This document shows positions 1 through 50,726 of a stretch of 64,000 bases of DNA, piece after piece (the first letter of the stretch is position 1; every line of letters begins with the position of its first letter). Under the pieces are notes generated by a model. It worked only from the letters and a program-made list of their open reading frames with translations. It did no database searches and was not told the origin of the DNA. Source of the DNA: Kiritimatiellia bacterium (GTDB lineage Bacteria; Verrucomicrobiota; Kiritimatiellia; CAIKKV01); the NCBI GenBank assembly GCA_046484345.1, contig JAWOJA010000007.1:11206-75205 (forward strand). Reading direction: 5' to 3'. The position numbers and the translations under genes were made by a program.

Positions 1-737
1 CGCCCCTGCTCGAACGCCTGCTCGAAGCCGTGCGGAGCGTGCCGAGTGTCGAACTGATCCGCATCGGCACGCGCACGCCCGTGGTGTTGCCCATGCGTAT
101 CACCTCCGCGCTCACGTCCATGCTGAAGAAATACCAGCCGATCTGGATCAACACCCATTTCAACCATCCCCAGGAGCTGACCCCCGAAGCTATTGCCGCC
201 TGCGGCGCGCTGGTGGACGCCGGCATTCCAATGGGCAACCAGACCGTGCTGTTGCGCGGGGTGAACGACGATCCCGAGGTCATGGCCCAGCTCTGCCGCG
301 GCCTGTTGCGCGCGCGCGTGAAACCCTACTATCTCTTCCAGTGCGACCTGGTGCGCGGGGTGGAGCATTTCCGCACGCCGCTGACCAAGGGCCTGGAAAT
401 CATGGAATACCTGCGCGGCCGCGTGAGCGGGTTGGCCATTCCGACCTTTGTGGTCGACACCCCCCACGGCGGCGGCAAGGTTCCGTTGCTCCCCAACTAC
501 ATCGTCTCCATGAGCCCCACGCACACGGTGTTGCGGAACTTCGAGGGCATGATGATGAGTTACCCCGAGCCCCAGTATCGCGCCGCGGCCGAAGCCGCCC
601 CGGTTTCAGATTGCGGCGCCGCCCGGGGCGTGTGGCAGGTCAGCAACGGCCGCGTCTCGGCGCTCGTGCCGGCCGGCAGCGAGAGGACGACCCGGCGGGC
701 GCGGATGCAACTTCGGAAGCCCCTGTCCGATGTGTAA
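1..737 (+). CDS. kamA: Lysine 2,3-aminomutase (KamA/AblA-type radical SAM), 5'-truncated at window edge
   Basis: C-terminal 235 aa matches KamA, including the long KamA-type C-terminal extension (GGGK...NYI.S.S...VLRNFEG) that EpmB lacks. The ORF is open to position 1. Confidence 0.8.
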   Translation, partial: PLLERLLEAVRSVPSVELIRIGTRTPVVLPMRITSALTSMLKKYQPIWINTHFNHPQELTPEAIAACGALVDAGIPMGNQTVLLRGVNDDPEVMAQLCRGLLRARVKPYYLFQCDLVRGVEHFRTPLTKGLEIMEYLRGRVSGLAIPTFVVDTPHGGGKVPLLPNYIVSMSPTHTVLRNFEGMMMSYPEPQYRAAAEAAPVSDCGAARGVWQVSNGRVSALVPAGSERTTRRARMQLRKPLSDV

Positions 738-746
738 GCCGGGTTC

Positions 747-2270
747 ATGAAACGATTCAAAGAATCGGTCCTGCTGCTCTACAACGCCCCGCAATCCGAC
801 GCGGAAAGCGAACGTGGCATTTTGTACGAAGTGGCCGCTGTCGAAGCGGCTCTGGAGCATCTACACGTTCCGTTCGTCAAGGCCGGCCTCCAAGCGCTCA
901 CCGATTTGCCGGCCCTGCTGATCAGCTGCCCCGCCCGGGTGGTCATCAACCTTGTCGAAGGCTTTCCAAACCGGCCGGAGGATGCCAACCTGGTGCCGGG
1001 TGTGTGCCGCGCCTTCGGCCGCAGCGTCACCGGCAACGACCTGGGCGCGCTGGAACTTGCGCTGGACAAAAACGTGGCCAAGGCCGTTCTGGTGGCCGCC
1101 GGCGTACCCGTGCCGGCCGGCGGAGTGGTCGCTCCCGGCCGGGTCCTGTCCGAAGCCTCTTTTCCCGCCGGCACCTACATCGTCAAGCCCCTCCGCTCCG
1201 ACGGCAGCGAGGGCATCGACGCCCGTTCGGTGGTGGCCTGGCCGGGGCCGGAATTAACCGCCGCCGTGCGCCGCGTGCACGATCAATTCGGCCAGCCCGC
1301 CCTCGTGGAGACGTTCTGCGGCACCCGCGAATTTAACGTATCCCTTCTCCAGGTCGCGGATGAGCTGCGCTGCATGCCCGTGGCCGAAATCGCTTTCAAG
1401 GGGTTCGGGCCGGATCGTCCGCGCATTGTGGGCTATGAGGCCAAGTGGCGCCCCGATTCGTTTGAATTCACGAATACGACCCGTGTGCTGCCGGCCGAGG
1501 TGACCGCGGAACAGGCCGAACGCCTGTGCGAATGCGCCCGCGCGGCCTGGCAGGCGCTCGGTTGCCGCGATTACGCGCGCGTGGACCTGCGGATGGACGA
1601 GGCGGGGGAGCTGACTGTGATCGAGGTCAACCCCAATCCCGATGTCTCGCCGGATGCTGGGTTTGCCATGGCATTGAAGGCGGGCGGGGTGGCGTATTGC
1701 GATTTTGTGGAAATCCTTTTGAACAACGCCTTGATCCGGCTGGGGCCGGAAGAATCGGCCCCCGCCGGGACGAGCGCGGTTCCGGCGCACGGGTATCCGA
1801 TCCGACGCAGCGAACAGGCCGACCGGGATCGGGTGATGGAGATTATACGGGAAACCGGCTTTTTCCGGCCCGATGAAATCGAAATAGCCCGCGAGGTGCT
1901 GGACGACTCCCTGCGGGACGGCCCGGGCGGACATTATCAGTCCTTTGTGATCGAAGCGGACGGCCGCGTCACCGGCTGGGTTTGCTGCGGGCCCACGCCC
2001 TGCACGGTGGGAACCTGGGATGTTTATTGGATCGCGGTGGATCCGGATTATCAAAAAAGAAGCCTCGGGAAGGCCCTTTTGCAGCATGCCGAGTCGTGCA
2101 TTATGGAGCGGGGCGGCCGGATCAGTGTTCTGGAGACCTCCGGAAAATCGGATTATCTGCCCACCCGGGGCTTTTACCTCAAGTGCGGCTATGAGGAGTC
2201 GGCGGTCCTTCGCGATTATTACGCTCCCGGCGACGCGCTGGTCATCTATACCCGGCATCTCCAGGCGTAA
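747..2270 (+). CDS. ATP-grasp (D-Ala-D-Ala ligase-like) domain fused to C-terminal GNAT N-acetyltransferase; possible beta-lysine acetyltransferase (AblB/YodP-like) with extra ligase domain
   Basis: N-terminal ~330 aa has an ATP-grasp Ddl-like fold (VIEVNPNP...). C-terminal ~150 aa carries a GNAT motif (WIAVDPDYQKRSLGKALL). It lies 10 nt downstream of kamA on the same strand. Confidence 0.65.
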   Translation: MKRFKESVLLLYNAPQSDAESERGILYEVAAVEAALEHLHVPFVKAGLQALTDLPALLISCPARVVINLVEGFPNRPEDANLVPGVCRAFGRSVTGNDLGALELALDKNVAKAVLVAAGVPVPAGGVVAPGRVLSEASFPAGTYIVKPLRSDGSEGIDARSVVAWPGPELTAAVRRVHDQFGQPALVETFCGTREFNVSLLQVADELRCMPVAEIAFKGFGPDRPRIVGYEAKWRPDSFEFTNTTRVLPAEVTAEQAERLCECARAAWQALGCRDYARVDLRMDEAGELTVIEVNPNPDVSPDAGFAMALKAGGVAYCDFVEILLNNALIRLGPEESAPAGTSAVPAHGYPIRRSEQADRDRVMEIIRETGFFRPDEIEIAREVLDDSLRDGPGGHYQSFVIEADGRVTGWVCCGPTPCTVGTWDVYWIAVDPDYQKRSLGKALLQHAESCIMERGGRISVLETSGKSDYLPTRGFYLKCGYEESAVLRDYYAPGDALVIYTRHLQA

Positions 2271-2395
2271 GCATTTTAAGCTGGAACGAAACGGCCCTTT
2301 ACTCTATAAATATTCTCATAGCGCGTGTAGCGCCCGGTAGCTTCCGCTCAATGAGCGGTTCCGGAATAAAGCCAAAGTGCCGAGAAGGAGATCGC

Positions 2396-3733
2396 ATGTA
2401 CAAGGATAAATCGTTGTTTCGCCAGGTCGGTTTTTCGCTGATTTGCGCCGGTTTGCTGACGGCGGGTTGCAACCGCCAGAGTGAGACGACCAAGACCGAA
2501 GAGGCGGCCAAGCCCGCCGCCGCTCCCGAAGTCAAGGCCAGTGCCGCTGTCGATCCCGCCAAGGTCATGATCCAAATCGATGACAAGAAGATCACCGAAG
2601 GAGAGCTGACCAAGCAGGCCGCCGAACAGTACGAGCAGGTGGCCGCCATGGTCCCCCCGGAGCAGTCCGAGACCTACCGCAACCAAATGCGCGTCCAGGC
2701 CGCCCAGTCGTTCATCATCACCACGCTGCTGGAAAACGAAGCCACCAAGCGCAACATCACGGTCAATGAGGCCGATATCGAAAAGGCCATCGCCGATATC
2801 ACCAAGCGTCTCCCCGCGGATATGAACTTGGAGAAGGTGCTCGAAAAGGAGGGCATGACCCCCGAGACCTTCCGTGACCGTTTGAAAAAGGATCTTCGCA
2901 TCAAGAAGTTGTTCGATGTGGAGATGGATAAGGCCGGTCCGATTGCGGACAAGGAAGTCGCCGATTTCTACGCCAAACAGAAATCCGCCTTCGAAGTGCC
3001 CGAGCAGGTGACCGCCCGCCACATCCTCATCAAGGTGGATGAAAAGGACGATGAGGCCGCGAAGGCTGCCAAGAAGGGCAAGATCGAGGATCTGAAGAAG
3101 AAGATCGAAGCCGGCGCCGATTTCGCGACCCTCGCCAAGGAAAATTCCGACTGCCCTTCCGCCAAAGAGGGCGGCTCGCTGCCCAAGTTCGGCCGCGGCC
3201 AGATGGTGCCCGCGTTCGAGGAAGCCGCTTTCACGCAGGCCACGAATGTGGTGGGCCCGATTGTCGAGACCCAGTTTGGCTATCACCTCGTCCAGGTGAT
3301 CGAGAAGGACGCCGGGTCCACGCGCTCCCTCGAGGACGTCAAGGAGCAGATTCTCGACTACCTCAAAATGATGAAGAGCCGCACGATCATCCCGCCGTTC
3401 ATCGACAGCCTGCGCGCCAATGCCAAGGTGACCATCGACCCTGAGCTGGATGAAGAAATCCAGGCCCAGAAGCTGGCTGACGAAGCCCGTCAAGCTGCCT
3501 CCATGCAGGGCGACGAGGGCGACGAGGGTGAAGAGGGCGAAGAGCAGGAAGAAGAAGTTCAGGCTCCGGCCGTTGAACCGGCCCCGGAAGCCCCGGAAGC
3601 CCCGGAAGCCCCGGCGGCCCCGGAAGCCCCGGCGGCCCCGGAAGCCCCGGCGGCTCCGGAAGCCCCGGCGGCTCCGGAAGCCCCGGCGGCTCCGGCTCCG
3701 GCCGTCGAGGCCGTCCCGCCAGCGGCGAAATAA
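2396..3733 (+). CDS. Parvulin-type peptidyl-prolyl isomerase lipoprotein (PrsA/SurA-like) with acidic Pro/Ala-rich repeat tail
   Basis: RBS AAGGAG lies 7 nt before the ATG at 2396. Lipobox LLTAGC. Rotamase domain (ARHILIKV...FGYHLVQV). C-terminal (PEAPAA)n repeat. Confidence 0.75.
   Translation: MYKDKSLFRQVGFSLICAGLLTAGCNRQSETTKTEEAAKPAAAPEVKASAAVDPAKVMIQIDDKKITEGELTKQAAEQYEQVAAMVPPEQSETYRNQMRVQAAQSFIITTLLENEATKRNITVNEADIEKAIADITKRLPADMNLEKVLEKEGMTPETFRDRLKKDLRIKKLFDVEMDKAGPIADKEVADFYAKQKSAFEVPEQVTARHILIKVDEKDDEAAKAAKKGKIEDLKKKIEAGADFATLAKENSDCPSAKEGGSLPKFGRGQMVPAFEEAAFTQATNVVGPIVETQFGYHLVQVIEKDAGSTRSLEDVKEQILDYLKMMKSRTIIPPFIDSLRANAKVTIDPELDEEIQAQKLADEARQAASMQGDEGDEGEEGEEQEEEVQAPAVEPAPEAPEAPEAPAAPEAPAAPEAPAAPEAPAAPEAPAAPAPAVEAVPPAAK
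3581..3700 (+). repeat. In-frame tandem repeat (9/18-nt units gccccggaa / gccccggcggccccggaa) encoding PEAPEAPAAPEAPAA within the PPIase tail
   Basis: About 7 near-identical tandem copies, read directly from the sequence. Confidence 0.8.
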
Positions 3734-3736
3734 GGC

Positions 3737-4399
3737 GTGCCGCGACGGTTGTTTATCTTCGATCTGGACGGCACGCTGGTTGACTCCGCCGCCGATTTGG
3801 CGACAGCTGTCAACCTGACCCGGGCCGCGTTTGGGCTCGGTCCGATATCCGCGACTACCGTGACCGGTTACGTGGGCGATGGCATCCGCATGCTCATGGT
3901 TCGTGCGCTCCAAGACTGTCCTGACGCGGATATCGAACGGGCCGTGAATTTCCAGAAGGCCTATTATCTGGCCCATCTGTGCGATCAAACACGGTCCTAC
4001 GATGGGGTCAGGGAAGGCCTGGCCCATCTGCGCGTCCGCGGACATGTTCTGGCCGTAGCCACCAACAAGCCGGTGGATGTCACCGAAACGTTGCTGGCCG
4101 ATCTGAAGATGCGTCACCTTTTCGATGCAGTCTATGGGGGCGGCAGCGTGCCGGAGCTCAAACCGCATCCCGCCATGCTGGAAGCCGCCATGACCGGACT
4201 GGGATTCGGCCGACCGGACAGCTGGATGGTGGGGGATAACCGGACGGACTTGGAATCGGCGCGCCGCGCCGGGATCCGCTCGGTCCTGATGCGCTACGGC
4301 ATGGGCCGTTCGGACCCGGAAAAACCGGATTTGGCGTTCGACACGTTTTCAGAATTCGTGACACATTTTGAACCGGACTTCCGGGGGGATCAGAGATGA
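3737..4399 (+). CDS. HAD-superfamily hydrolase, phosphoglycolate phosphatase-like
   Basis: Motif I FDLDGTLVDS and the remaining HAD motifs are present. GTG start 3 nt after the PPIase stop. Confidence 0.7.
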   Translation: MPRRLFIFDLDGTLVDSAADLATAVNLTRAAFGLGPISATTVTGYVGDGIRMLMVRALQDCPDADIERAVNFQKAYYLAHLCDQTRSYDGVREGLAHLRVRGHVLAVATNKPVDVTETLLADLKMRHLFDAVYGGGSVPELKPHPAMLEAAMTGLGFGRPDSWMVGDNRTDLESARRAGIRSVLMRYGMGRSDPEKPDLAFDTFSEFVTHFEPDFRGDQR

Positions 4400-5499
4400 A
4401 AAAGCCATCGACCGTATATTTTGCATCCGTCGGCGTTGCCCGCCCCGAAGGCTCGGCAACCCTGCCCGCGAAGCTTCAGCGGATGCTGGCGCAATTCGAT
4501 CTCAAGGAGCTCAGCCAGGGCCAGGCCGTGCCCATCAAGATGCACCTGGGTGGAAACCTGGGCTATTCCACCATTCATCCTTTGCTGGTGCGCATGGTGG
4601 TCAATGCCGTCAAGGCCGCCGGCGGCAAACCGTTCGTGGTGGAAGCCGGCTTCGGCACCGTCGCCGCCGCGGCGGACCGCGGCTATACGGCCGAAACCCT
4701 CGGATGCCCCATCGTCGCGGCCGGCGGCCCGTATGACGCATACGTGGTGGAGCGCGAGGTCGGTTTCCGCCAGCTCGACAAGCTCCGCATTTACGGCACG
4801 ATCTGGGATGCCCCCTGCCTGATCAACCTCTCCCACGTCAAGGGCCATGGCGCCTGCGGTTACGGCGGCGCCTGCAAGAACATTGCCATGGGCTGTGTCG
4901 ATGCGAAAACGCGCGTCAAGATTCACGCCCTCGAGGGCGGGATCGATTGGGACAAGAACGCCTGCCTATTTTGCGGCCGTTGCGTGAAGGCGTGCGACAG
5001 CGACGCCATCACGCTCGACAAGAAGAAGAAATCCCTCGATATCTTTTTCCACAATTGCCGCTTCTGCCGCCACTGCGTGGCCGCCTGTCCCACGAAGGCG
5101 CTCGTCATGCGCGAGGAAAGCGGGTTCCGCTATTTCCAGGAAGGCATGGCGTTGACCACGAAAACGGTGCTGGATTCCTTCAAGCCGGGCCGCGTGCTGC
5201 ACATCAACGTGCTCACTCAGATCACTATGTTCTGCGATTGCTGGGGCATCACCACGCCCAGCCTGGTGCCGGACATCGGGATCATGGGGTCCACGGACAT
5301 GGTGGCGCTGGAAACGGCCTGCCTGAACGCCATCAAGACGGAGAACCTGATTCCCGGCTCCATCATCGGCAAGCGGAAAATGAGCAAGGGCTCGCATCTT
5401 TTTGAGCGGATTCACGGCAAGGATCCCTGGCTGCAGGTCAAGGCCCTGGAGGCGCACGGCGTCGGCTCCCGGAAGCACGTGGTCAAGGAAGTGGGCTGA
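4396..5499 (+). CDS. DUF362-domain protein with two 4Fe-4S ferredoxin motifs
   Basis: CxxCxxCxxxCP motifs (CLFCGRCVKACD, CRFCRHCVAACP). ATGA overlap with the upstream gene. Confidence 0.6.
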   Translation: MKKPSTVYFASVGVARPEGSATLPAKLQRMLAQFDLKELSQGQAVPIKMHLGGNLGYSTIHPLLVRMVVNAVKAAGGKPFVVEAGFGTVAAAADRGYTAETLGCPIVAAGGPYDAYVVEREVGFRQLDKLRIYGTIWDAPCLINLSHVKGHGACGYGGACKNIAMGCVDAKTRVKIHALEGGIDWDKNACLFCGRCVKACDSDAITLDKKKKSLDIFFHNCRFCRHCVAACPTKALVMREESGFRYFQEGMALTTKTVLDSFKPGRVLHINVLTQITMFCDCWGITTPSLVPDIGIMGSTDMVALETACLNAIKTENLIPGSIIGKRKMSKGSHLFERIHGKDPWLQVKALEAHGVGSRKHVVKEVG

Positions 5500-17142: not shown

Positions 17143-18927
17143 ATGCGGGACGCCTTCAGCCAGTTTAAGTTTGCGGAACGGACCGACAAGGGCCGGGTCC
17201 GCGAAAACAATGAGGATGTGATACTCTGCCTCCCCGAGGCGGGGCTTTTCGCCATAGCCGACGGCATGGGCGGCGCCCGCGAGGGGGAGGTGGCCGCCCG
17301 CGCGGCCATCGAGCATCTGCGCGAATCGTGCGGCGATGCGGGCGTGCCCCTCTTGACCCGCTTCCGCCGCTGCCGCGACGCCGTCAATGACGCCAGCCTC
17401 TGGATCCGCCAATATGCGACCCGGCACGGCAATCCCGGCATGGGCACCACGCTGGTGGTGCTGTTGTTCGATTTGGACGATCCCGCCGCCGCCGCCGTCC
17501 TGCACGCGGGCGACAGCCGCCTGTACCGTTTCCGCAAGGGCGTGCTGGAGCAGATGACCCGCGATCATTCCGTGGCCGCCATGGCCGGGGTGGGCGAAGG
17601 CGGTCATTTGCCGCCCATGTTTCGGAGTGTGATCACCCGCTCCGTGGGCGCGCGCCGGAGCGTGGAATTGGACACCACCACACTCGACGTCCAGCGTGGC
17701 GATCTGTTCCTGCTTTGTTCCGACGGCCTTCCCAACATGGTGTCGCGGGATAAAATGGCCGCGATTCTGGGGGCCCCCCAAGACCTGGAAGGCCAGGCCG
17801 AGGCGTTGATCAAGGAGGCCCTTGACCAAGGCGGGGACGACAATATTTCGGTGGTGCTGGTCCGGGCCGAGGGGGCCCCCGACGGGGAGACCCCGGTCAC
17901 GGCCGATGCCGAACCGGTTCCCCTTCGGGATATGCCTTCGCCCGCCCATGACACGCCCCCGCGCCGGGTTTGGGGCCCCCTGGCCAGCCTGTTGGCGATT
18001 GCCCTGGCGGGCGTCGTGGCCGTCTGGTTCGCGTTCCTGCCCGCTTCCGACCCCCCGCCAACCGTTCCGGCTTCCGTTCCGGAGCCCGCCCCCGTTGAGC
18101 AACAGCCGCTGTCTTTGAGGCAGGCGGCTGTTGTTCCCAATATGGATACTAATGCCGTGCCGGGCCCCGCTGCCGTGGAGGCGGCCTGGCAGGCCGAGCT
18201 TGCCGAGGTGGCGGCCGAGCCCGACCGGCTCAATCACCGCCATGAGGCCGTCTTGCGCGCCTTTGCCCAGTTGTCGGGCTGGGCCGGCAAGCCGCTTCCG
18301 GCGCCCTCGCTGATGATCGCGGGGGAGCCCGGGGAACGGGCCGAGGCCTGGGGCCGCTATCTGAAAAATGCGCAGGATCAATGGCGGACGTTCGCCGGGA
18401 TCGAATGCGCCCGCCTGCGCGCCGAAGCGTCCTGCCTGTCGGCCGAAGCGCTGCAAGCCCTCTGGCGCTGGGATCGGGCGGGGGACGGGCCCGACCCCGC
18501 CGGATTAAACGAAATTGTGGCGGACTGGGAGGCCTGGCGCCGGGAATTGGACCGGATGGAGAAGTTTTTTAATGAGGAACAAGGGGTCGCGCCTTTTCTT
18601 TATGCGCTGCGGGCGGACCTCTTCACGCCGGGCGGCCTGGCCGCCGACCTGGGCGACAGGACGTGGAACGGCGTGCTGCCCGCCATCGGCGGCATGTGGC
18701 GCAAGCGGGAGTATTGGATCGGGCCAGCCGGGGAGGCGGACGTGGTGAAGGTGGATGAGGCGATCCGGCAGGCCAACGCCATCACCGGCGGCTACCGGGA
18801 CGCCGGCTACGCGGTTCGCCCCTGGCGGCAGACGATGGACCCGGCGGGCCTCGCCGCCTTTTTAGAGCTGATGCGGTCGGAGGCGATCGGCCGTGTTTTG
18901 AAGCGGCAGCCGGACGACCCACACTAG
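17143..18927 (+). CDS. PP2C-family Ser/Thr protein phosphatase with C-terminal TM segment and ~270-aa extracytoplasmic domain
   Basis: PP2C motifs (FAIADGMGG, GTTLVVL, CSDGL). TM helix LASLLAIALAGVVAVWFAF. Confidence 0.8.
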   Translation: MRDAFSQFKFAERTDKGRVRENNEDVILCLPEAGLFAIADGMGGAREGEVAARAAIEHLRESCGDAGVPLLTRFRRCRDAVNDASLWIRQYATRHGNPGMGTTLVVLLFDLDDPAAAAVLHAGDSRLYRFRKGVLEQMTRDHSVAAMAGVGEGGHLPPMFRSVITRSVGARRSVELDTTTLDVQRGDLFLLCSDGLPNMVSRDKMAAILGAPQDLEGQAEALIKEALDQGGDDNISVVLVRAEGAPDGETPVTADAEPVPLRDMPSPAHDTPPRRVWGPLASLLAIALAGVVAVWFAFLPASDPPPTVPASVPEPAPVEQQPLSLRQAAVVPNMDTNAVPGPAAVEAAWQAELAEVAAEPDRLNHRHEAVLRAFAQLSGWAGKPLPAPSLMIAGEPGERAEAWGRYLKNAQDQWRTFAGIECARLRAEASCLSAEALQALWRWDRAGDGPDPAGLNEIVADWEAWRRELDRMEKFFNEEQGVAPFLYALRADLFTPGGLAADLGDRTWNGVLPAIGGMWRKREYWIGPAGEADVVKVDEAIRQANAITGGYRDAGYAVRPWRQTMDPAGLAAFLELMRSEAIGRVLKRQPDDPH

Positions 18928-18930
18928 GGG

Positions 18931-21900
18931 ATGAGGGGCATGGCAGAAACCGAGCAGGCGCGGATCGGCGATTTCCAAATCGAGGGCAAAATCGGCGAAG
19001 GCTCCCTCGGCACGGTCTTCAAGGCGGTTTGCCTCGCCGATGGGCCGCCCCCGTTGCGGAAAGGGCTGGCGGTGGCGCTCAAAAAGCTCCACCCGTCCGC
19101 GGATCTCACGCGCGAGATGAAGGCGTTGCAGGCCCTGGCCCATCCGCATATTGTCCGGTTTTTCTCCTGTTTTGTCTCCCGTCCGGGCGAGTGGGACGAA
19201 GCGCCGTTCCTGGTTACGGAACTCCTCGAGGGGTGCGACCTGGCCCGGCATTTGCAGGGATTCCCCTCCGGCCTTCCGTGGGAGGAGGCGAAACGGCTCC
19301 TGGACCAGACGCTGGATGCGCTGGCCTTTGCCGAATCCCAGGGCGTGACGCATCGCGACCTGAAACCGTCCAACCTATTTGTCTGCCGCGACGGCTCCGT
19401 GAAAATCATCGATTTCGGCCTGGCCCGGCGGACGGGCGGCACGGTGTCGGTGGCCGAAGCCGGCCGGGCGGGCGGCTTGACCGGCACGCTGGACTACATG
19501 GCCCCGGAATTTGCCCGGATCGACGGTTTCCGGGGAGATGCGCTGTCGGACCTGTTCAGCTTCGGGGTGCTGGCCAGCCAGATCCTGACCGGGCAGTTGC
19601 CGTTCCCTCCGCTGGGGGAGCATCCGGAAATCGCGTTCATCCGGCGTTGGACGGGGCCCCAGCCGCCGCGCGCCATCCTGCCCCGGCCCATTGCGTACGC
19701 CTGGGAGGGCGCGGGCCCCTTTCTGGCGCGAGTCCTGCATGTGAATCGCGAAGCCCGCTTCCCGCATTTTGACGCTGCCCGCGAAGCCTTGGCCGGCATC
19801 CGGCCGCGGGTGTTGGCGGGAGGCCGCGAGGTCTACACGCTGGAAGCGTTCGTGGCATCGGGCGGATTTTGCGATGTTTTCCGCGGGCGGGCGGAGCGCG
19901 GCGGCGGCCCGGTGGCGATCAAGCGGCTGCATGCGGGACGGCACGAATGGCGCTTCCGCCGGGAAGCGGGGCTGTTGGACGCGTTGCAGAGCCTCGAGCA
20001 TCCCGCCCTGGTGAAGGTGCATGAATTGGTGGAGGAACCCGGACCCGACGGGGCCCCCTGCCTGGTCATGGAATATTTGCCCGGCGAGGATCTGCGCCGG
20101 CGGCTGTCCGATGGCTGGGAAGCGGGCGGGCTTGCGCCGGCGGAAGTCGCGCGCCTGTTTATCCGTTACCTCGAGGGGCTTGAAGCCCTGCACCGCCGGG
20201 GAATCGCCCACCGTGACATCAAGCCCGCCAACCTGTATGCGCCGGTCGGGAAGGCCGGCGAGGCCAAGCTCCTCGATCTTGGCATTGCCTGCGAGAAGGA
20301 AGGCACGCTGTCGATGAACGGCATGCCGCCGGGAACCCTCGATTACATGGCCCCCGAACTCGCCTCCGGCGCGGGCTCGCGCGGGTCGCCGCAGGCGGAC
20401 CTGTTCGCGCTGGGCTGCAGCCTGTACGAGGCTTTGACCGGGCGCCCGGCCTTCAAGCGGCTGCCCCGCGAGGATGCGGCCGCCCTGCGGGGCCTGTGCG
20501 CCCGCTCGGAGAGCGAATCGGCGTTTCTGGCGGCGTTTGAGGGCTTCGAGCTGCCGGTGTTTGAGGCGCAACCCGAATGGGCGGCCGTGATCGGCCGAGC
20601 CCTTCAGTATAATCCCGAAATTAGGTACGGTGGCCGGGAAGAAGAGCAGGCGAAGGGCTGGCAGGGGGCGGGCGCCCGGGCGATGCGGGTGGACCTGGAG
20701 GCGCTTCTGGAGCAGACGGCTTCCGGCCCGGGAGGCCCCGTTTCCGCGGGGGCATCCGCGGCCGCGCCGCCCACCTCGGATTTGACGGTGGCGCTGGAGC
20801 CCCCGCCTCCACCTAAGCGACGGCGGCGGGTTTGGCTGGCGGCGGGCCTGGCGTTGCTGGCCGCCGCCGGTGCCCCGCTCATCTGGTCCGGCCTTCCGGA
20901 AGCGGAAAAACCGGCCGCGTCCGCCGTGTCGGAGCCGGTGCCGCTGCGGGAGCAAGTGGAGCCTCCGGTTCAGGAGCCCGCGGTTCGGCCCGATCCTCCG
21001 GCGGCTGAAGTTCCACCCGAACTTCCGACCCCGGCCCCGGTTGTTCCGGCGCCCGAGGCCCCGCGCGTGGTGATCCGGCCCGCCCCGGCCGCGCCCAAAC
21101 CAATTGCAGTACCGGTTGCGCCCGTTGCCTCCCGGCCGGCGGTCCCGCCGGAGCCCGCCGGGCCTGTGGCCGCAGCACCGGATATTCCGGCGCCGCCTAT
21201 TCCCGACCCGCCCCCGGCACCAGCGAGGGAACCGGTGGAGGCGGAATTGGGGCTGGAGGAAAAATCGATCGACGCCTGGCGCGACTGGCTTTTCCGGGTG
21301 AACGATCCGCTGCAATCGCTCACGTTGAAGCGCTATGAGCAGGGGCTGACGAGTCCCGCCTGGAAGGGGCAGCTGCCGTTCCTGCTGGCGGCCGAGCGGG
21401 AGGCCATGCCGGCGGGGTTGCGCTGGCGGTATGAACGGGCGCACGTGTGGGAACAGGCTGTTCCCGGATTGAATGGGGCGGCGGCCTTTCAGGCGCTGGG
21501 CAAGGCTTTGCGCGGCGTGGCGGAGCGGGCGCGGGCGGAGGATCCGGGAACGGCCGATCAGTGCCTGTTCGACAGCGCCCTGGTGGAATGGGACGGCCGC
21601 ACGCCGCCCGATCCGGGGAAACTGCCCGCGCTGCCCGAAGCGGGAATCTGGCTTGCCCATGCGCTGGCGGCGTCGGGCGACGACCAGGACTGCCGTGACG
21701 TGCTGGCCGAAATTGCCGGCTATGCGGGACAGCCGGGCGCGCAGATCCGGGTGGAAGACGCCTTGCTGGCCCTGCGGGCGGCCGACACCTGCCTGGGCGG
21801 GCTGGTGAGGGATATTCGCGAGAAAACCTCCGCGGACGTGGTCAAGCCCGGCACGGGCCGCGCGGTCCGGGACCCGGTGGCCGCCTATGCGCTGGCGGTG

Positions 21901-22206
21901 GAGCGCGTGAGGGAAGAGGCGGCGGGGGCTGTCCGGCGGCTGTTGATTGTGGCGGGCGCGACCGGGCCGGGGGTTGCCCGGGCTATGGAGGAACGCCTGC
22001 GGACTGGAGTTAAAAAGGGGACGGTTGGCGATTATGCCTGGTCCGTTTCCGAATTGGGAAAGACGCCCTGGCGGGAAAGCCGCCAGACAGGGCTGCCGCG
22101 GCCGGAACGGCTGGCGGCGGAGGACCGCGCCATCCTGGGCCATGTGCTGGGCTATTCGCCCCTGCCGAAGCGGCCGGAGGAGCTTCCGCTGGCCCGGTTG
22201 CGCTAG
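18931..22206 (+). CDS. Membrane-anchored Ser/Thr protein kinase with two tandem, apparently intact kinase domains
   Basis: Domain 1 has GEGSLGTV, VALKKL, HRDLKPSN, DFG, APE. Domain 2 has VAIKRL, HRDIKPAN, DLG, APE. A Pro-rich linker and one TM helix precede a ~430-aa C-terminal domain. Confidence 0.8.
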   Translation: MRGMAETEQARIGDFQIEGKIGEGSLGTVFKAVCLADGPPPLRKGLAVALKKLHPSADLTREMKALQALAHPHIVRFFSCFVSRPGEWDEAPFLVTELLEGCDLARHLQGFPSGLPWEEAKRLLDQTLDALAFAESQGVTHRDLKPSNLFVCRDGSVKIIDFGLARRTGGTVSVAEAGRAGGLTGTLDYMAPEFARIDGFRGDALSDLFSFGVLASQILTGQLPFPPLGEHPEIAFIRRWTGPQPPRAILPRPIAYAWEGAGPFLARVLHVNREARFPHFDAAREALAGIRPRVLAGGREVYTLEAFVASGGFCDVFRGRAERGGGPVAIKRLHAGRHEWRFRREAGLLDALQSLEHPALVKVHELVEEPGPDGAPCLVMEYLPGEDLRRRLSDGWEAGGLAPAEVARLFIRYLEGLEALHRRGIAHRDIKPANLYAPVGKAGEAKLLDLGIACEKEGTLSMNGMPPGTLDYMAPELASGAGSRGSPQADLFALGCSLYEALTGRPAFKRLPREDAAALRGLCARSESESAFLAAFEGFELPVFEAQPEWAAVIGRALQYNPEIRYGGREEEQAKGWQGAGARAMRVDLEALLEQTASGPGGPVSAGASAAAPPTSDLTVALEPPPPPKRRRRVWLAAGLALLAAAGAPLIWSGLPEAEKPAASAVSEPVPLREQVEPPVQEPAVRPDPPAAEVPPELPTPAPVVPAPEAPRVVIRPAPAAPKPIAVPVAPVASRPAVPPEPAGPVAAAPDIPAPPIPDPPPAPAREPVEAELGLEEKSIDAWRDWLFRVNDPLQSLTLKRYEQGLTSPAWKGQLPFLLAAEREAMPAGLRWRYERAHVWEQAVPGLNGAAAFQALGKALRGVAERARAEDPGTADQCLFDSALVEWDGRTPPDPGKLPALPEAGIWLAHALAASGDDQDCRDVLAEIAGYAGQPGAQIRVEDALLALRAADTCLGGLVRDIREKTSADVVKPGTGRAVRDPVAAYALAVERVREEAAGAVRRLLIVAGATGPGVARAMEERLRTGVKKGTVGDYAWSVSELGKTPWRESRQTGLPRPERLAAEDRAILGHVLGYSPLPKRPEELPLARLR

Positions 22207-22431
22207 CTGTGGTCGGTTGGACAGGGTGCGGCGTTTCGATCAGACGGACGCTGGCGATGCGATTTTGCGATGCTGGCGGTTGACGGCGAGGGGAGCTGGG
22301 CTCGTGCCCGCGAGCCTCCAGCCGGAAACCGGCAGCGCGCAAAAGCGCGCGGCAGGGAACGCCCGAAACGCCGCACCCAGCCCAACCGGGCATATAACCG
22401 CAACCATGTCGAATCCGCCGACGGCTTTCGC

Positions 22432-22460
22432 TTGAAGATCGGGACGGGAAGCGGTAGTGT
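22432..22460 (+). promoter_or_regulatory. Sigma-70-like promoter TTGAAG-N17-TAGTGT for the small-membrane-protein / sigma-54 activator operon
   Basis: Same -10 hexamer and spacer length as the promoters at 13018 and 44449. The ATG follows ~10 nt after the -10. Confidence 0.4.
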
Positions 22461-22469
22461 TTCACCACT

Positions 22470-22694
22470 ATGTACGAATTCTGGCTCTGTTTTATTCCGT
22501 TGTTTGTGGCCGTTCTCACCACCGGCATGCTGCTGGTCGGGCTGACGTTTCTGTTTGCCGATTCCATCACGCGCCGGCTGGGGCGCACGGGGACGAAGGC
22601 GATATCCAAGCCGACCAGCCTGTTTCTGGCGGCCATTGCCGTGATGCTGATGCGAAAGGGAATTGTCCTGGCCATTGCGACGGCGGGACCGTAA
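22470..22694 (+). CDS. Small (74 aa) two-TM membrane protein, hypothetical
   Basis: Two hydrophobic helices. Lies directly upstream of the FHA sigma-54 activator on the same strand. Confidence 0.4.
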
Positions 22695-22704
22695 GGGGTG
22701 CCGG

Positions 22705-24510
22705 ATGAAGACAGGGGTGCTGGTCAGGCAGAGGGCGGATGGGCATATGCGGCCGTGGCCGCTGCTGAAGCCGCTGGTGCGCGTTGGGCGGGCGCTTTCC
22801 CATGATATTGCCCTGACGGACCCCAGCGTGTCGCGCGATCATGCGGTCATTGAGACCCAGTACGGCGCCTGGGTGCTGACCGACCGGGACAGCCGCAACG
22901 GCACGCGGGTGAACGGCGTGGCCGTGGCCCGGCGGCAGTTGAACGACGGCGATGTGATCGCCTTCGGCGATGTGGCCATGGTCTTTCACGTGGTCGACGA
23001 GGAGCCGGCGCCCTCAGCGGTGGCGGCCGAATCGCGTGTGGGGCTGGATCTCGACCGGCGAACGATCGTCGCGCCGGATATCGCCCCGGAGGCGACCGCG
23101 TGGCCGGGCGTGTATGCCTGGCAGATGCTCAAGGCCCTTTCCAGCATCCAGACCCGGCCGCTGGACGATTATGTGCGCATGGCGATCAACGATTTGTCGG
23201 GCATTCGCCATGTGACGGGCAACGGGGTGGGGCTGATGGTGGAGCCCGGGGGCGCGTGGAAATGGATCTGGCACGAGGGGGCGGACGCCTCCATCAAGAC
23301 CTGGTGCGCCACGGAAGAGGTGGCGGCGGAGGTGCGGGCCAATCGCGCCGTTTATCGCTCCAAGGGCGCGCGGATTGAGGTGGAGGAGCTGGCCGACGGC
23401 GCCGTGTTTCCCATTGCCACCTGCGGCCGCGTGATTGGCTGCCTGTGCGTGCAGGGGCGCGGCGTGTTTCCCTCCGCGCTGCTGGCCATTTTTCGTGTTG
23501 CGGCCGAGGCGGTCGGCACGGCCCTGGGCTTGCGGGAGGTCATGGCCCAGCGCGCCGCCGAGCCGGGCCGGGGTCCGGCGGATGCCCGGCGGGCTCCGGT
23601 GATTGTGGGGCGCGGGCCCGCGCTGCTCCAGGTGATGCGCCAGGCCGGCAAGGCGGCGAAGCACGATGCCACGGTTTTGATCCGGGGCGAAACGGGAACA
23701 GGCAAGGAGCTGTTCGCCCGGCTGATCGTGGAGGAGAGCCCGCGGCGGGAGAAGCCTTTTATTCCGGTGCACTGCAGCGCGATCGATGAAAATTTGCTGG
23801 GCAGCATGCTGTTCGGGCACGAGAAGGGCGCCTTCACCGGGGCCGTGGGGCTGAAGAAGGGCGTGTTTGAAGAGGCGGACGGCGGCACCATTTTTCTCGA
23901 CGAAATCGGCGAGCTTTCGCTTTCCATGCAGGTCAAGCTATTGCGGGTGCTGCAGGAGGGGGAGTTTATGCGGCTGGGGGGGACCAAGCCCCTGCGGGTG
24001 AACGTGCGCATCATTGCGGCGACGAACCGCGATCTGGAGAAAGCGATCCGCGGGGGCCATTTCCGGGAGGATCTTTTTTACCGGTTGAATGTCATTTCGT
24101 TGCGGCTGCCGTCGTTGCGTGAGCGGCGCGAGGACATTCCCGAGCTGGTGCGCCATTATGTGGAGCAGCTTTCGCGCGAGACGGCCCGGGGCGTCTGCAC
24201 GGTGAGCGAAGAGGCCATGGCGCGTTTGCGGGAATATGATTGGCCCGGCAACATCCGGGAGCTGCGCAATGTTGTGGAGCGCGGCCTGGTGCTGGCCGAA
24301 GGGGGCGCCATCACGGAGGACGACCTTCCCATCGAGGTGGCGGCCCGGGCGGCCTGGCCGTCTGGCGCGCCCGAAGGCCATTCCCTAGAGCGGATGGAGC
24401 AGGGGCATATTCAGAGCGTGTTGCGCGACTGTGGCGGCAACAAGCGCCTGGCGGCCGGGCGGCTCGGTATTAGCCGCAGCACGTTGTATGTGAAATTGAA
24501 GGGCGAGTGA
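22705..24510 (+). CDS. Sigma-54-dependent transcriptional activator (bEBP) with N-terminal FHA domain
   Basis: FHA motifs (GR...DI.L.D..VSR.HA, NGT.VNG). AAA+ sigma-54 interaction domain ([28 protein letters not shown]-like). C-terminal Fis-type HTH. Confidence 0.85.
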
Positions 24511-34078: not shown

Positions 34079-39514
<5,436 letters not shown>

Positions 39515-49543: not shown

Positions 49544-50726
49544 CGGCCGGCCGGGGTTGTGACACCGCCAGGGCCAGCGGCACCAGGCCGACCAGCCCCA
49601 GTTGAAGCCGGTTGTCGGGGCAGTCGACGAGCCCGTAGAGGTGCCACATCAGCAGCAGCAGGGACACGAGCGCGACGCGCAGGCGGGCCGCCTCGTCTTG
49701 TTCCCTTTTCATTGCCATCATCAGGCGGGCCGCCAGGAGCAACCACAGCGTCCCGTGCAGGATGAGCCAGACCCGCCCCCCCTGGAACAGCACGAACAGC
49801 GTGTATTGGTGCGGGTGGGGGAAGACAAAGGGCGAGGGGGGCGGATCCGAGGCCCGGTAAACCGTCTGGAAGGTTGTCTTGCCGTACCCGTAACCCAGCC
49901 AAGGACGGTCCCCGATCAGGCGGACGGTGTGGCTCCAGACGGCGTCACGGCCGGAGAGAAAGTCCTTTTTTTCAAGGAAACGCGCGTTGATCCGCGAAAG
50001 GTTGGCTCCGATCGGCAGGGCCACCATGACGGCCAGGCCGAGTCCGATCAGCCGCCCCCGCCAGGAGCGCGGGGCGAGCAGGAGCACGGCGGCGGCCGCT
50101 CCGGCGAAGGCGGCCTGCGGCCCGCGCGAGGCGAGGGCTACCAGGTAGGCGAGCGCGATTCCCGCGCCCGCGGCGAACCCCGTTGCCTGGATCCGGCGGC
50201 GCCGGCGGGTCCACGCGCCATACAGCCCGACGAGGACCGTTGCGCCAGCCAGCAGGCTCGCCACGTTCGGATGGTTCAGGACATAGGGTTTATAGTAGCG
50301 ACCCTGGACCAGCAGCGCGGGGCCCAGAGCCGTGGAAAGCCGGATCAGGTCTCCGGCAAAAAGAAGGGTCAGCACGCCGGCGGAAGCGAAGAGCACCCGC
50401 TCCGCCCGCCGTCCGTCCGCCACCCACACCGAAAGGGCAAAAGCGCCGGCCGCGAGGCGCCAATCGCTCAGCAGTTCCCACCCCGCAGCGGCCGGAAAAA
50501 CCGCGAAGGGCAGCAGGAGCGCGGCGGACAGGGGGATGAGCAGGGCGGCCAGCCCGGGCGGGGAGGACCAGAGGGCGGCGGCACGGCGCCAGCGTGGGAG
50601 CGCCCAGAGAAAGGCGCCGCCGATCAGGATGTCGGTGACGGCCTTCGAGGGAAGAGCCCAGACCAGAAACGCGGCCGCCAGACCCGCCGTGATCCGGCTA
50701 ATTTTGCATGCGGCGGAACAGCTCAT
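49524..50726 (-). CDS. O-antigen ligase family protein (WaaL/Wzy_C-like polytopic membrane protein)
   Basis: About 10 TM segments and a periplasmic loop with the ligase-type HPH (NHPN) region. Start chosen at the first ATG, overlapping the kinase 3' end by 29 nt. Confidence 0.65.
   Translation of the reverse strand: MSCSAACKISRITAGLAAAFLVWALPSKAVTDILIGGAFLWALPRWRRAAALWSSPPGLAALLIPLSAALLLPFAVFPAAAGWELLSDWRLAAGAFALSVWVADGRRAERVLFASAGVLTLLFAGDLIRLSTALGPALLVQGRYYKPYVLNHPNVASLLAGATVLVGLYGAWTRRRRRIQATGFAAGAGIALAYLVALASRGPQAAFAGAAAAVLLLAPRSWRGRLIGLGLAVMVALPIGANLSRINARFLEKKDFLSGRDAVWSHTVRLIGDRPWLGYGYGKTTFQTVYRASDPPPSPFVFPHPHQYTLFVLFQGGRVWLILHGTLWLLLAARLMMAMKREQDEAARLRVALVSLLLLMWHLYGLVDCPDNRLQLGLVGLVPLALAVSQPRPAVKSSAP

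What the first reader, a model, noticed from the sequence alone, without database searches (positions are those of the whole stretch)
1..2270. kamA followed by an ATP-grasp/GNAT fusion: beta-lysine pathway with an extra ligase domain
The true KamA-type lysine 2,3-aminomutase (with the long C-terminal extension) is followed 10 nt later by a 507-aa protein. That protein combines a D-Ala-D-Ala-ligase-like ATP-grasp domain with a C-terminal GNAT acetyltransferase. In methanogens and Bacillus the kamA partner is a stand-alone GNAT (AblB/YodP) that makes N-epsilon-acetyl-beta-lysine. Adding an ATP-dependent carboxylate-amine ligase domain suggests a different product, such as a beta-lysine-containing dipeptide, an acyl-beta-lysine, or a peptide-tethered compatible solute.
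Basis: partly seen in the sequence, partly recalled or inferred. Interest (0 to 1): 0.55.

Follow-up and report, generated by a model that had tools for sequence, protein, structure and literature searches.

The report
Beta-lysine gene beside ligase-acetyltransferase fusion
The gene pair is real, and it is a trimmed, fused version of an uncharacterised gene cluster found in hundreds of bacterial species, which probably turns the unusual amino acid beta-lysine into an acetylated, amide-linked small molecule whose identity is still unknown.

Summary
Window 1-737 holds the last 244 codons of a KamA/AblA-type lysine 2,3-aminomutase, cut by the window edge. Nine nucleotides later, 747-2270 encodes a 507-aa protein. 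It is a catalytically intact D-Ala-D-Ala-ligase-fold ATP-grasp joined to a GNAT acetyltransferase.

The pair is not an isolated oddity. It is a reduced version of a cluster conserved in at least 585 species genomes across more than 10 phyla. The usual cluster has kamA, two paralogous Ddl-like ligases (A and B) and a cluster-specific GNAT. That GNAT belongs to the family of the function-unknown PDB entry 2R7H from Oleidesulfovibrio alaskensis G20. Some clusters add an acetylpolyamine-amidohydrolase-like deacetylase.

kamA lies next to ligase B in 68 of 74 evaluable genome loci. B and the GNAT are fused in 33 loci and separate in 75. The window's Kiritimatiellia lineage lacks ligase A locally.

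The GNAT is not AblB-like. In nine loci, pyruvoyl arginine decarboxylase takes the place of kamA while the ligase signatures stay the same. This suggests, but does not prove, that the ligases acylate an amino group of a diamine-type substrate.

Best reading: beta-lysine is ligated and then N-acetylated. The product and its role are unknown, and I found no paper describing the cluster.

The parts
1..737 (+). 3' part of kamA/ablA-type lysine 2,3-aminomutase. Reading frame starts at base 3; 244 codons; stop TAA at 735-737. The 5' part with the radical-SAM CxxxCxxC motif lies outside the window.
   Evidence: LAM_C 98.9 bits. AblA model E 2.3e-90. The syntenic orthologue L001 matches 2A5H at E 1.2e-130. 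QCD (Asp293 equivalent) lies within 327-350. VVD...GGGK (Asp330 and PLP-Lys337 equivalents) lies within 441-479.
738..746 (+). 9-nt spacer (gccgggttc) between the kamA stop and the fusion-gene start. It implies one transcript.
   Evidence: Sequence read. The spacer is 4 nt in the orthologous locus L001. No terminator-like site on the + strand in 1-4500.
747..1760 (+). ATP-grasp ligase domain of the D-Ala-D-Ala-ligase fold, residues 1-338. It is the 'B' paralogue of the conserved cluster.
   Evidence: Pfam Dala_Dala_lig_C E 2e-22. AF2 model pLDDT 92.4. Foldseek top hits are Ddl, TM about 0.8 normalised to the target. DdlB catalytic residues are all conserved: K108, K147, E188, E195, K233, R278, D280, E293, N295. 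B-type signature residues E71, D152, W234, R282, N297 and D299 are present.
1761..1784 (+). Inter-domain linker, residues 339-346.
   Evidence: It is the only segment with pLDDT below 50 in the AF2 model. Length and sequence vary in the alignment. This is where the genes are separate in 75 other loci.
1785..2270 (+). GNAT acetyltransferase domain, residues 347-507, plus the stop codon at 2268-2270.
   Evidence: Acetyltransf_7 and Acetyltransf_1 at E about 2e-13. PDB 2R7H at E 2.3e-34 over residues 337-502, sharing the GPTPxTxGTxDxYWIAV motif. Acetyl-CoA loop R438-S-L-G441-K-A443. No AblB hit; RimI 44 bits against a cut-off of 86.4.

Best explanation
The two genes form an operon for a beta-lysine-derived small molecule. 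The steps below are marked as supported by homology or inferred. No step is supported by biochemistry.

Step 1 (by homology and conserved substrate-binding residues). KamA converts L-lysine to beta-lysine (3,6-diaminohexanoate).

Step 2 (inferred). The N-terminal Ddl-fold ATP-grasp domain uses ATP to activate a carboxylate as an acyl-phosphate and couples it to an amino group. Beta-lysine is one partner, most likely as the amine nucleophile.

Step 3 (inferred). The C-terminal GNAT domain uses acetyl-CoA to cap a remaining free amino group on the same molecule.

The predicted product is an N-acetylated, amide-linked beta-lysine conjugate. It could be a dipeptide-like solute or a charge-masked polyamine analogue.

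The pair is the reduced, fused form of a widespread cluster: kamA, ligase A, ligase B and a GNAT, sometimes with an acetylpolyamine-amidohydrolase-like deacetylase, under TetR or sigma-54 control. That full cluster would make a larger, doubly ligated version. The second building block and the physiological role (osmolyte, polycation homeostasis, other) are not known.
For: Gene identity:
- KamA keeps the residues that bind the lysine epsilon-amino group (Asp293 and Asp330 equivalents) and the PLP lysine. The roles of these residues are from my own knowledge of Lepore 2005 and Ruzicka & Frey 2007, not checked here.
- The ligase keeps every DdlB catalytic residue but not the D-Ala-binding ones.

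Coupling:
- The spacer in the window is 9 nt.
- kamA is adjacent in 68 of 74 evaluable genome loci and 56 of 66 metagenome loci. 124 of 129 pairs are co-oriented.
- Ligase B and the GNAT are fused in 33 loci and adjacent but separate in 75.
- The same cluster is present in cultured Desulfovibrio mangrovi and Oleidesulfovibrio alaskensis G20.

Small-molecule amine chemistry:
- The deacetylase in many clusters is closest to acetylpolyamine amidohydrolases (E 4e-66).
- In 9 loci, pyruvoyl arginine decarboxylase (with agmatinase in 2 of them) replaces kamA upstream of ligase A, ligase B and the GNAT.
- The conserved-residue signatures of ligases A and B are the same in both cluster types. Beta-lysine and agmatine or putrescine share a 4-carbon amine skeleton, which could be the moiety both recognise.
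- Ligase B carries invariant acidic residues absent from Ddl: E71, D152, E214, D299.

Precedent: Ngg combines N-acetylation and peptide-bond formation to make the osmolyte precursor NAGG (PMC8070244, citing Sagot 2010).
Against: - No biochemical or genetic data exist for any member, and neither ligase substrate is assigned.
- The window lineage (window, L001-L003) has no ligase A within reach. Its product may differ from that of the full cluster, or ligase A may be encoded elsewhere.
- Identical ligase signatures in kamA-type and ArgDC-type clusters could equally mean that the ligases do not touch the KamA or ArgDC product at all.
- Only 9 ArgDC-type loci were seen, and absence of kamA elsewhere in those genomes was not shown.
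- The GNAT's nearest curated family is RimI, a protein N-terminal acetyltransferase, although below its cut-off.
- The cluster occurs in freshwater, soil and digester MAGs as well as saline ones (record titles), so an osmolyte role is not indicated by habitat.
Confidence: 0.5

Rival explanations
1. Plain N-epsilon-acetyl-beta-lysine synthesis. The GNAT domain is a non-orthologous replacement of AblB. The ATP-grasp domain does a later or unrelated step, for example further derivatisation or recycling.
For: kamA followed by a GNAT is the AblA/AblB logic that makes this osmolyte in methanogens (Pfluger 2003, as cited in PMC3543383 and PMC9337991). A deacetylase in many clusters would fit turnover of an acetylated diamino acid.
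Against: - No AblB-family hit for the GNAT.
- The ligases are more tightly linked to kamA than the GNAT is. kamA plus ligase B clusters without any GNAT exist (L095-L105 type).
- The ligase catalytic residues are fully conserved, so they are under selection within the same operon.
Confidence: 0.15
2. Protein or peptide modification. The ligase would attach beta-lysine or another residue to a protein or ribosomal peptide, and the GNAT would acetylate it. Analogues are RimK/RimI, EF-P beta-lysylation, or the microviridin-type arrangement of two ATP-grasps plus a GNAT.
For: The GNAT's nearest curated family and next-best PDB hits are RimI. The microviridin composition (two ATP-grasps plus a GNAT) is from my own knowledge. 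A weak TTL-family hit appears in one ligase A.
Against: - There is no room for a precursor-peptide gene. The gaps in the window are 9 nt and 80 nt, and genes abut or overlap in most loci.
- The ligases have the complete three-domain Ddl fold and match only Ddl-type enzymes in the PDB.
- The deacetylase is of the polyamine type, not the protein type.
- Agmatine from ArgDC-type clusters has no carboxylate to be attached in the way EpmA attaches beta-lysine.
Confidence: 0.1
3. Lysine degradation. KamA would start lysine fermentation or an acetyl-beta-lysine catabolic route, with the other genes as accessory functions.
For: KamA is the first enzyme of clostridial lysine fermentation. Some kamA genes cluster with beta-lysine acetyltransferase in what one paper calls a 'lysine degradation pathway' (figure legend in PMC2821294).
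Against: None of the downstream fermentation genes was seen next to the cluster in 166 loci. I did not see beta-lysine 5,6-aminomutase, a dehydrogenase or a cleavage enzyme. ATP-consuming ligases do not fit catabolism. [quoted passage not shown]
Confidence: 0.07
4. A cell-wall enzyme. The ATP-grasp would be the organism's D-Ala-D-Ala (or D-Ala-X) ligase, fused to an acetyltransferase.
For: Public annotations call relatives 'D-alanine-D-alanine ligase'. The fold and catalytic residues are those of Ddl.
Against: - The best Ddl model scores 92.5 bits against a cut-off of 243.
- The D-Ala-binding residues are replaced: E15 to S, S150 to G/A, Y216 to W, S281/L282 to A/S-G.
- The linkage is to kamA, not to mur/fts genes.
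- The cluster is also present in Dehalococcoidia and in a Bathyarchaeota MAG.
Confidence: 0.03

Closest known systems
AblA/AblB (KamA/YodP) pathway for N-epsilon-acetyl-beta-lysine
   Same: A lysine 2,3-aminomutase with the LAM_C domain is directly followed, in one operon, by a GNAT-containing gene. Acetylation of a beta-lysine-derived amine is the likely last step.
   Different: The GNAT is not AblB-like. An active Ddl-fold ligase is fused to it, and in most genomes a second ligase is present. The KamA orthologue scores below the AblA equivalog cut-off (479.6 against 525.4).
Ngg, the bifunctional enzyme of N-acetylglutaminylglutamine amide (NAGGN) synthesis
   Same: One polypeptide combines N-acetylation and ATP-dependent amide-bond formation to build a small N-acetylated dipeptide solute (PMC8070244).
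   Different: From my own knowledge, Ngg has the opposite domain order (GNAT then ATP-grasp) and a different ATP-grasp subfamily. Its substrates are glutamines and its partner gene is asnO, not kamA. Homology to Ngg was not tested here.
D-alanine-D-alanine ligase (Ddl/VanA family)
   Same: Same three-domain fold (Foldseek TM about 0.8 normalised to the target). All ATP, Mg and acyl-phosphate catalytic residues are conserved.
   Different: It is far below the family cut-offs. The substrate-binding residues are changed and there are extra invariant acidic residues. The genomic context is kamA rather than cell-wall genes.
PDB 2R7H, 'putative D-alanine N-acetyltransferase of GNAT family' (Oleidesulfovibrio alaskensis G20, ABB39838.1)
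   Same: Same GNAT family (E 2.3e-34, shared GPTPxTxGTxDxYWIAV motif). Its gene sits in the same cluster: sigma-54 activator, kamA, ligase A, ligase B, GNAT.
   Different: It is a stand-alone 176-aa protein, not fused. Its function is unassigned, and the deposited name appears to be a guess.
Polyamine acetylation/deacetylation pair (SpeG-type GNAT and acetylpolyamine amidohydrolase)
   Same: Many clusters carry both a GNAT and an APAH-like HDAC-fold deacetylase (E 4e-66 to APAH structures). This suggests reversible charge masking of an amine.
   Different: The window has no deacetylase within 64 kb. The substrate would be a ligated beta-lysine derivative, not a classical polyamine.

Membership tests
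KamA family / lysine 2,3-aminomutase | Scores above the KamA-family model TIGR00238 cut-off (199.2 bits) | tested here: met
   The full-length syntenic orthologue L001 scores 301.1 bits. The window fragment alone scores 165.9 bits because it is truncated.
KamA family / lysine 2,3-aminomutase | Radical-SAM CxxxCxxC cluster motif | not testable with these tools
   This part of the gene lies outside the window. The orthologue L001 has CSMYCRHC.
KamA family / lysine 2,3-aminomutase | PLP-binding Lys337 and the lysine epsilon-amino binders Asp293 and Asp330 (C. subterminale numbering; residue roles from my own knowledge) | tested here: met
   QCD at 327-350 and VVDTPHGGGK at 441-479 align with D293, D330 and K337 of 2A5H.
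KamA family / lysine 2,3-aminomutase | C-terminal LAM_C domain, which is absent from EpmB/YjeK-type enzymes | tested here: met
   LAM_C scores 98.9 bits against a cut-off of 26.7. PMC2821294 describes YjeK as a truncated LAM lacking the C-terminal multimerisation domain.
AblA equivalog (TIGR03820) | Score at or above 525.4 bits | tested here: not met
   The orthologue L001 scores 479.6 bits. AblA is still the best-scoring model, ahead of glutamate 2,3-aminomutase at 419.8 bits.
AblB/YodP beta-lysine N-epsilon-acetyltransferase | Match to the AblB family model | tested here: not met
   Six NCBIfam families hit the GNAT domain at E <= 0.01, and none is AblB. The best is RimI at 44 bits against a cut-off of 86.4. 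Caveat: I assume, from memory, that the library holds the AblB model TIGR03827.
D-Ala-D-Ala ligase | Ddl fold and ATP/Mg/acyl-phosphate catalytic residues | tested here: met
D-Ala-D-Ala ligase | Family score cut-off and the D-Ala-binding residues E15, S150, Y216, S281, L282 | tested here: not met
   92.5 bits against a cut-off of 243. The window protein has S, G, W, A and G at those positions.
Conserved kamA / ligase A / ligase B / GNAT cluster (unnamed) | kamA adjacent and co-oriented; B-type ligase signature (E71, D152, W234, R282, N297, D299); 2R7H-type GNAT | tested here: met
Conserved kamA / ligase A / ligase B / GNAT cluster (unnamed) | Second (A-type) Ddl-like ligase in the cluster | tested here: not met
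   No second paralogue in the 64-kb window, nor in L001-L003. The rest of the genome could not be searched.
Microviridin/graspetide-type RiPP cluster | Adjacent precursor-peptide gene | tested here: not met
   The intergenic gaps are 9 nt and 80 nt in the window. No conserved small ORF family appeared in the 82 loci clustered.
Ngg-type bifunctional NAGGN synthetase | Sequence homology to Ngg, GNAT-then-ATP-grasp domain order, asnO partner gene | not tested
   Only the functional analogy was considered. No asnO-like neighbour was noticed in the loci examined.

The most novel reading that the evidence does not exclude
The cluster makes a so far undescribed class of metabolites. Two Ddl-like ligases would build small N-acetylated peptides or amides onto a 4-carbon diamine scaffold, which is beta-lysine in most lineages and agmatine or putrescine in others. 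An acetylpolyamine-amidohydrolase-type enzyme would reversibly deacetylate them. Such a molecule could be a polyamine surrogate or stress metabolite, common in anaerobes of more than 10 phyla, that current annotation files as 'D-Ala-D-Ala ligase' or 'RimI-like'. The window would encode its minimal, single-ligase form.
Probability: 0.35. Interest if true: 0.75.

Novelty: new variant of a known kind. Interest (0 to 1): 0.6.

Why it matters
[quoted passage not shown] Here the GNAT belongs to a different family and comes with one or two active ATP-dependent ligases, so that inference is probably wrong for hundreds of species.
- The cluster is widespread in environmentally important anaerobes: PVC bacteria, Aminicenantes, Dehalococcoidia, Ignavibacteria, Gemmatimonadota and Desulfovibrionaceae.
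- One component has a solved structure (2R7H) with no assigned function.
- The cluster is present in a genetically tractable organism, O. alaskensis G20, which has an archived transposon library. The question of what these cells make from beta-lysine is therefore directly testable.
- If the product is a new solute or polyamine analogue, it would add a metabolite class and give names to two large families of misannotated 'Ddl' and 'RimI-like' proteins.

Tried and rejected
- **Exact look-up.** The window protein and P0001 were not on record in the contig index. I used the 75%-identical orthologue P0003 instead.
- **Riboswitch or other known RNA upstream of kamA.** None was found at gathering scores in 8 loci. 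Regulation appears to be protein-based, by TetR or sigma-54 activators.
- **Promoter and terminator scan.** It gave nothing useful on the + strand.
- **Second ligase, deacetylase or TetR gene in the window.** tblastn found none.
- **Genuine Ddl.** Rejected on score and substrate residues.
- **AblB orthology.** Rejected.
- **RiPP reading.** No space for a precursor gene, and the ligases are Ddl-type rather than peptide-type.
- **Specificity-determining positions.** I looked for positions that differ between kamA-type and ArgDC-type ligases. Only one consistent difference appeared in B (V228 to C) and none in A. This test did not identify a substrate pocket.
- **Literature.** Ten searches found no description of the cluster. 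Only 6 papers hold both 'ATP-grasp' and 'beta-lysine', and none concerns it. Subscription-journal papers are not covered.
- **Lepore 2005 structure paper.** It could not be read, so the residue roles in KamA rest on my own knowledge.
- **afdb50 fold library.** It was unavailable.
Full report
**1. What is in the sequence**

Two co-oriented + strand genes occupy 1-2270.

The first runs off the left edge. Bases 3-737 translate to 244 residues ending in TAA at 735-737. They match Pfam LAM_C (98.9 bits, cut-off 26.7). The best NCBIfam model is the AblA lysine 2,3-aminomutase (E 2.3e-90), ahead of glutamate and arginine 2,3-aminomutases and EpmB.

After a 9-nt spacer, ATG 747 opens a 507-codon ORF that ends at 2270. 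Residues 137-325 match the Ddl C-terminal ATP-grasp domain (E 2e-22). Residues 376-484 match GNAT models (E about 2e-13).

An identical protein is deposited from a Kiritimatiellia MAG as 'GNAT family N-acetyltransferase'. Only the C-terminal half of kamA is in the window, and the spacer is 9 nt, not 10.

**2. The aminomutase**

A syntenic locus from a related MAG carries the full 451-aa orthologue. This is L001, from GCA_945898015.1, whose fusion protein is 75% identical to the window's.

- The orthologue matches the Clostridium subterminale enzyme 2A5H at E 1.2e-130.
- It passes the KamA-family model (301 bits, cut-off 199).
- It falls short of the AblA equivalog cut-off (479.6 against 525.4). 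AblA is still its best model, ahead of glutamate 2,3-aminomutase at 419.8.
- In the alignment, the residues I know to bind the lysine epsilon-amino group (Asp293, Asp330) and PLP (Lys337) are conserved. All three lie inside the window (327-350 and 441-479). Their roles are from my own knowledge, because the structure paper could not be read.
- The C-terminal domain distinguishes it from truncated EpmB/YjeK-type enzymes (PMC2821294).

Beta-lysine is therefore the likely product. This rests on homology only.

**3. The fusion protein**

An AlphaFold2 model built on 114 homologues has mean pLDDT 92.4. Its only disordered stretch is residues 339-346, between the two domains. Foldseek places the N-terminal 335 residues with D-Ala-D-Ala ligases.

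I aligned it to E. coli DdlB. I had typed the DdlB sequence from memory, and it proved identical to 2DLN.

- Every catalytic residue is conserved: K97, K144, E180, E187, K215, R255, D257, E270, N272.
- The D-Ala-binding residues are not. E15 becomes S, S150 becomes G, Y216 becomes W, and S281/L282 become A-G. In addition H63 becomes Glu and G276 becomes Asp.
- Ddl family scores are far below their cut-offs (92.5 against 243).

The domain is therefore an active ligase, but not a D-Ala-D-Ala ligase.

The GNAT half has the acetyl-CoA loop RSLGKA. It gave no AblB hit; its best curated family is RimI at 44 bits, below the 86.4 cut-off. Its true relative is PDB 2R7H (E 2.3e-34), a structural-genomics protein of unknown function.

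**4. The family and its neighbourhood**

The fused architecture is common. All 120 best database hits are full-length or fragmentary copies of it, and the full-length ones are 490-558 aa and 46-86% identical.

By record title, the 80 loci fetched come from:

- Kiritimatiellia and Verrucomicrobiota, Lentisphaerae, several Planctomycetota orders;
- Acidobacteriota, Eisenbacteria, Dehalococcoidia and SAR202, Ozemobacter;
- Bacteroidota, Ignavibacteria, Gemmatimonadota, Aminicenantes;
- Myxococcota, Deltaproteobacteria and one Bathyarchaeota MAG.

I located homologues of each component by tblastn.

- kamA is present next to the ligase in 68 of 74 evaluable loci.
- Over all loci fetched there are 129 kamA-ligase B pairs. 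124 are co-oriented, 121 lie within 1.5 kb and all within 3.5 kb.
- The dominant architecture is kamA, ligase A (about 330 aa, a paralogue), ligase B and the GNAT. It accounts for 46 of the 60 loci with full flanks, and 5 more add a deacetylase.
- In PVC lineages a TetR regulator often precedes the cluster.
- In Bacteroidota, Ignavibacteria and Aminicenantes the order is A, B, GNAT, kamA.
- Ligase B and the GNAT are fused in 33 loci and are separate neighbours in 75.

**5. Cultured organisms**

Stand-alone GNATs of the 2R7H family sit in the same cluster in several genomes.

- Desulfovibrio mangrovi has a sigma-54 activator, kamA, A, B, the GNAT and a GNAT-like/HDAC protein.
- A Woeseia MAG and a further, unnamed 3.7-Mb assembly carry it as well.
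- The 2R7H protein itself is ABB39838.1 of Oleidesulfovibrio alaskensis G20. There the order is sigma-54 activator, kamA, A, B, GNAT.

**6. Informative variants**

(a) The HDAC-fold protein found in about 10 loci is closest to acetylpolyamine amidohydrolases (E 4e-66). Protein deacetylases match it less well.

(b) In L061 and eight metagenome loci (L087-L094) kamA is absent. A pyruvoyl-dependent arginine decarboxylase (with agmatinase in two of them) directly precedes A, B and the GNAT, and a SAM methyltransferase follows in all but the two loci whose contigs end before that position.

(c) A third type has ligase A, a PAS histidine kinase, a sigma-54 response regulator, a further response regulator, kamA and ligase B, with no GNAT.

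(d) The conserved-residue signatures of both ligases are the same in kamA-type and ArgDC-type clusters.

**7. What is special about the window**

Only the window and its close relatives L001-L003 have kamA plus the B/GNAT fusion without ligase A. L003 is the single such case among the 60 genome-scan loci with full flanks. No second ligase, deacetylase or TetR gene lies in the 64 kb.

Downstream genes are a SurA-like isomerase, a HAD phosphatase, a DUF362 protein, PgpA and HrpB. These are syntenic housekeeping genes. The locus therefore looks like a two-gene operon.

**8. Mechanistic reading**

Shown:
- gene identities and intact catalytic residues;
- tight and phylogenetically broad linkage;
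- both fused and split forms of ligase B and the GNAT.

Inferred:
- KamA supplies beta-lysine.
- The ligase forms an amide that involves it.
- The GNAT acetylates a free amine of the same molecule.

I favour beta-lysine acting as the amine partner, for three reasons. Arginine decarboxylase, which makes an amine with no carboxylate, can replace kamA without any change in the ligase signatures. Beta-lysine is in effect a carboxymethyl-substituted 1,4-diaminobutane. Ligase B has invariant acidic residues that Ddl lacks. This argument is suggestive, not proof. The same data would also fit ligases that act on other substrates.

The full cluster would add two acyl units, and the window's version would add one.

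The role is open. An Ngg-like or AblB-like osmolyte is possible. Against that, the habitats are not especially saline, and the deacetylase and ArgDC contexts point to polyamine-like chemistry.

**9. Rivals**

| Rival | Confidence |
|---|---|
| Plain N-acetyl-beta-lysine synthesis | 0.15 |
| Protein or RiPP modification | 0.10 |
| Lysine catabolism | 0.07 |
| Cell-wall Ddl | 0.03 |

The evidence for and against each is given under rival explanations. The main arguments against them are:
- the absence of an AblB-type GNAT;
- no space for a precursor gene;
- no fermentation genes nearby, and G20 not believed to catabolise lysine;
- loss of the D-Ala-binding residues.

**10. Novelty and score**

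All the enzyme families are known, and the general logic has precedents in AblAB and Ngg. I therefore rate it a new variant of a known kind rather than categorically new.

I found no description of the cluster in ten full-text searches. This does not cover subscription journals.

Interest is 0.6. The cluster is widespread, consistently misannotated, linked to an orphan crystal structure, and testable in a tractable sulfate reducer. Set against that, the window's instance is a reduced form and its product is unknown.

Noticed in passing
window 258-284 and 594-629 (KamA C-terminal half): Compared with C. subterminale LAM (2A5H), the cysteines I recall as the inter-subunit zinc site are absent. 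Cys268 aligns with Asp (GVNDD), and the CxCxxC stretch at 375-380 aligns with a region holding a single Cys (AAPVSDCGAARG). The zinc-site role is from memory, not checked.
   Followed up: partly
L061:5092-10120; L087-L094: A sister cluster type has a pyruvoyl arginine decarboxylase (agmatinase also present in L061 and L089) in place of kamA. It is followed by ligase A, ligase B and the GNAT, and by a SAM methyltransferase in all but L090 and L091, whose contigs end before that position. It was seen in 9 loci.
   Followed up: yes
L105:711-7852 (also L095-L099, L104, L110, L114-L119 and others): Another cluster type has ligase A, a PAS histidine kinase, a sigma-54 response regulator, a single-domain response regulator, kamA and ligase B, with no GNAT nearby.
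   Followed up: partly
L003:9554-10927: In the closest genome-scan relative (67% identity), a MatE-family exporter gene overlaps the stop codon of the ligase/GNAT fusion. This hints that the product could be exported in that lineage. No such gene follows in the window.
   Followed up: no
L001:7961-8467; L003:5801-6367: A thioredoxin-like (Thioredoxin_7/DsbH-like) gene lies directly upstream of kamA in both Kiritimatiellia relatives. The corresponding region lies outside the window.
   Followed up: no
window 2351-3733 (+): This SurA/PpiC-type peptidyl-prolyl isomerase has an acidic stretch and then a C-terminal tail of (APEAP/AAPEAP) repeats (about 3560-3720). The repeats also create long spurious ORFs on both strands.
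   Followed up: no
window 34079-39514 (+): An unusually long (1811 aa) UvrA-like protein has several ABC/UvrA segments, roughly twice the size of canonical UvrA.
   Followed up: no
window 17143-24510 (+): A signalling gene row: a PP2C phosphatase (594 aa), a 1091-aa Ser/Thr kinase for which Pfam reports two kinase-domain stretches, and an FHA-domain sigma-54 activator (615 aa). A second kinase with LRR repeats lies at 50698-54000 (-).
   Followed up: no
L069, L072, L073, L066, L081 (Aminicenantes loci): In Aminicenantes the cluster lies directly downstream of V/A-type ATPase subunit genes A, B and D, in the same orientation.
   Followed up: no
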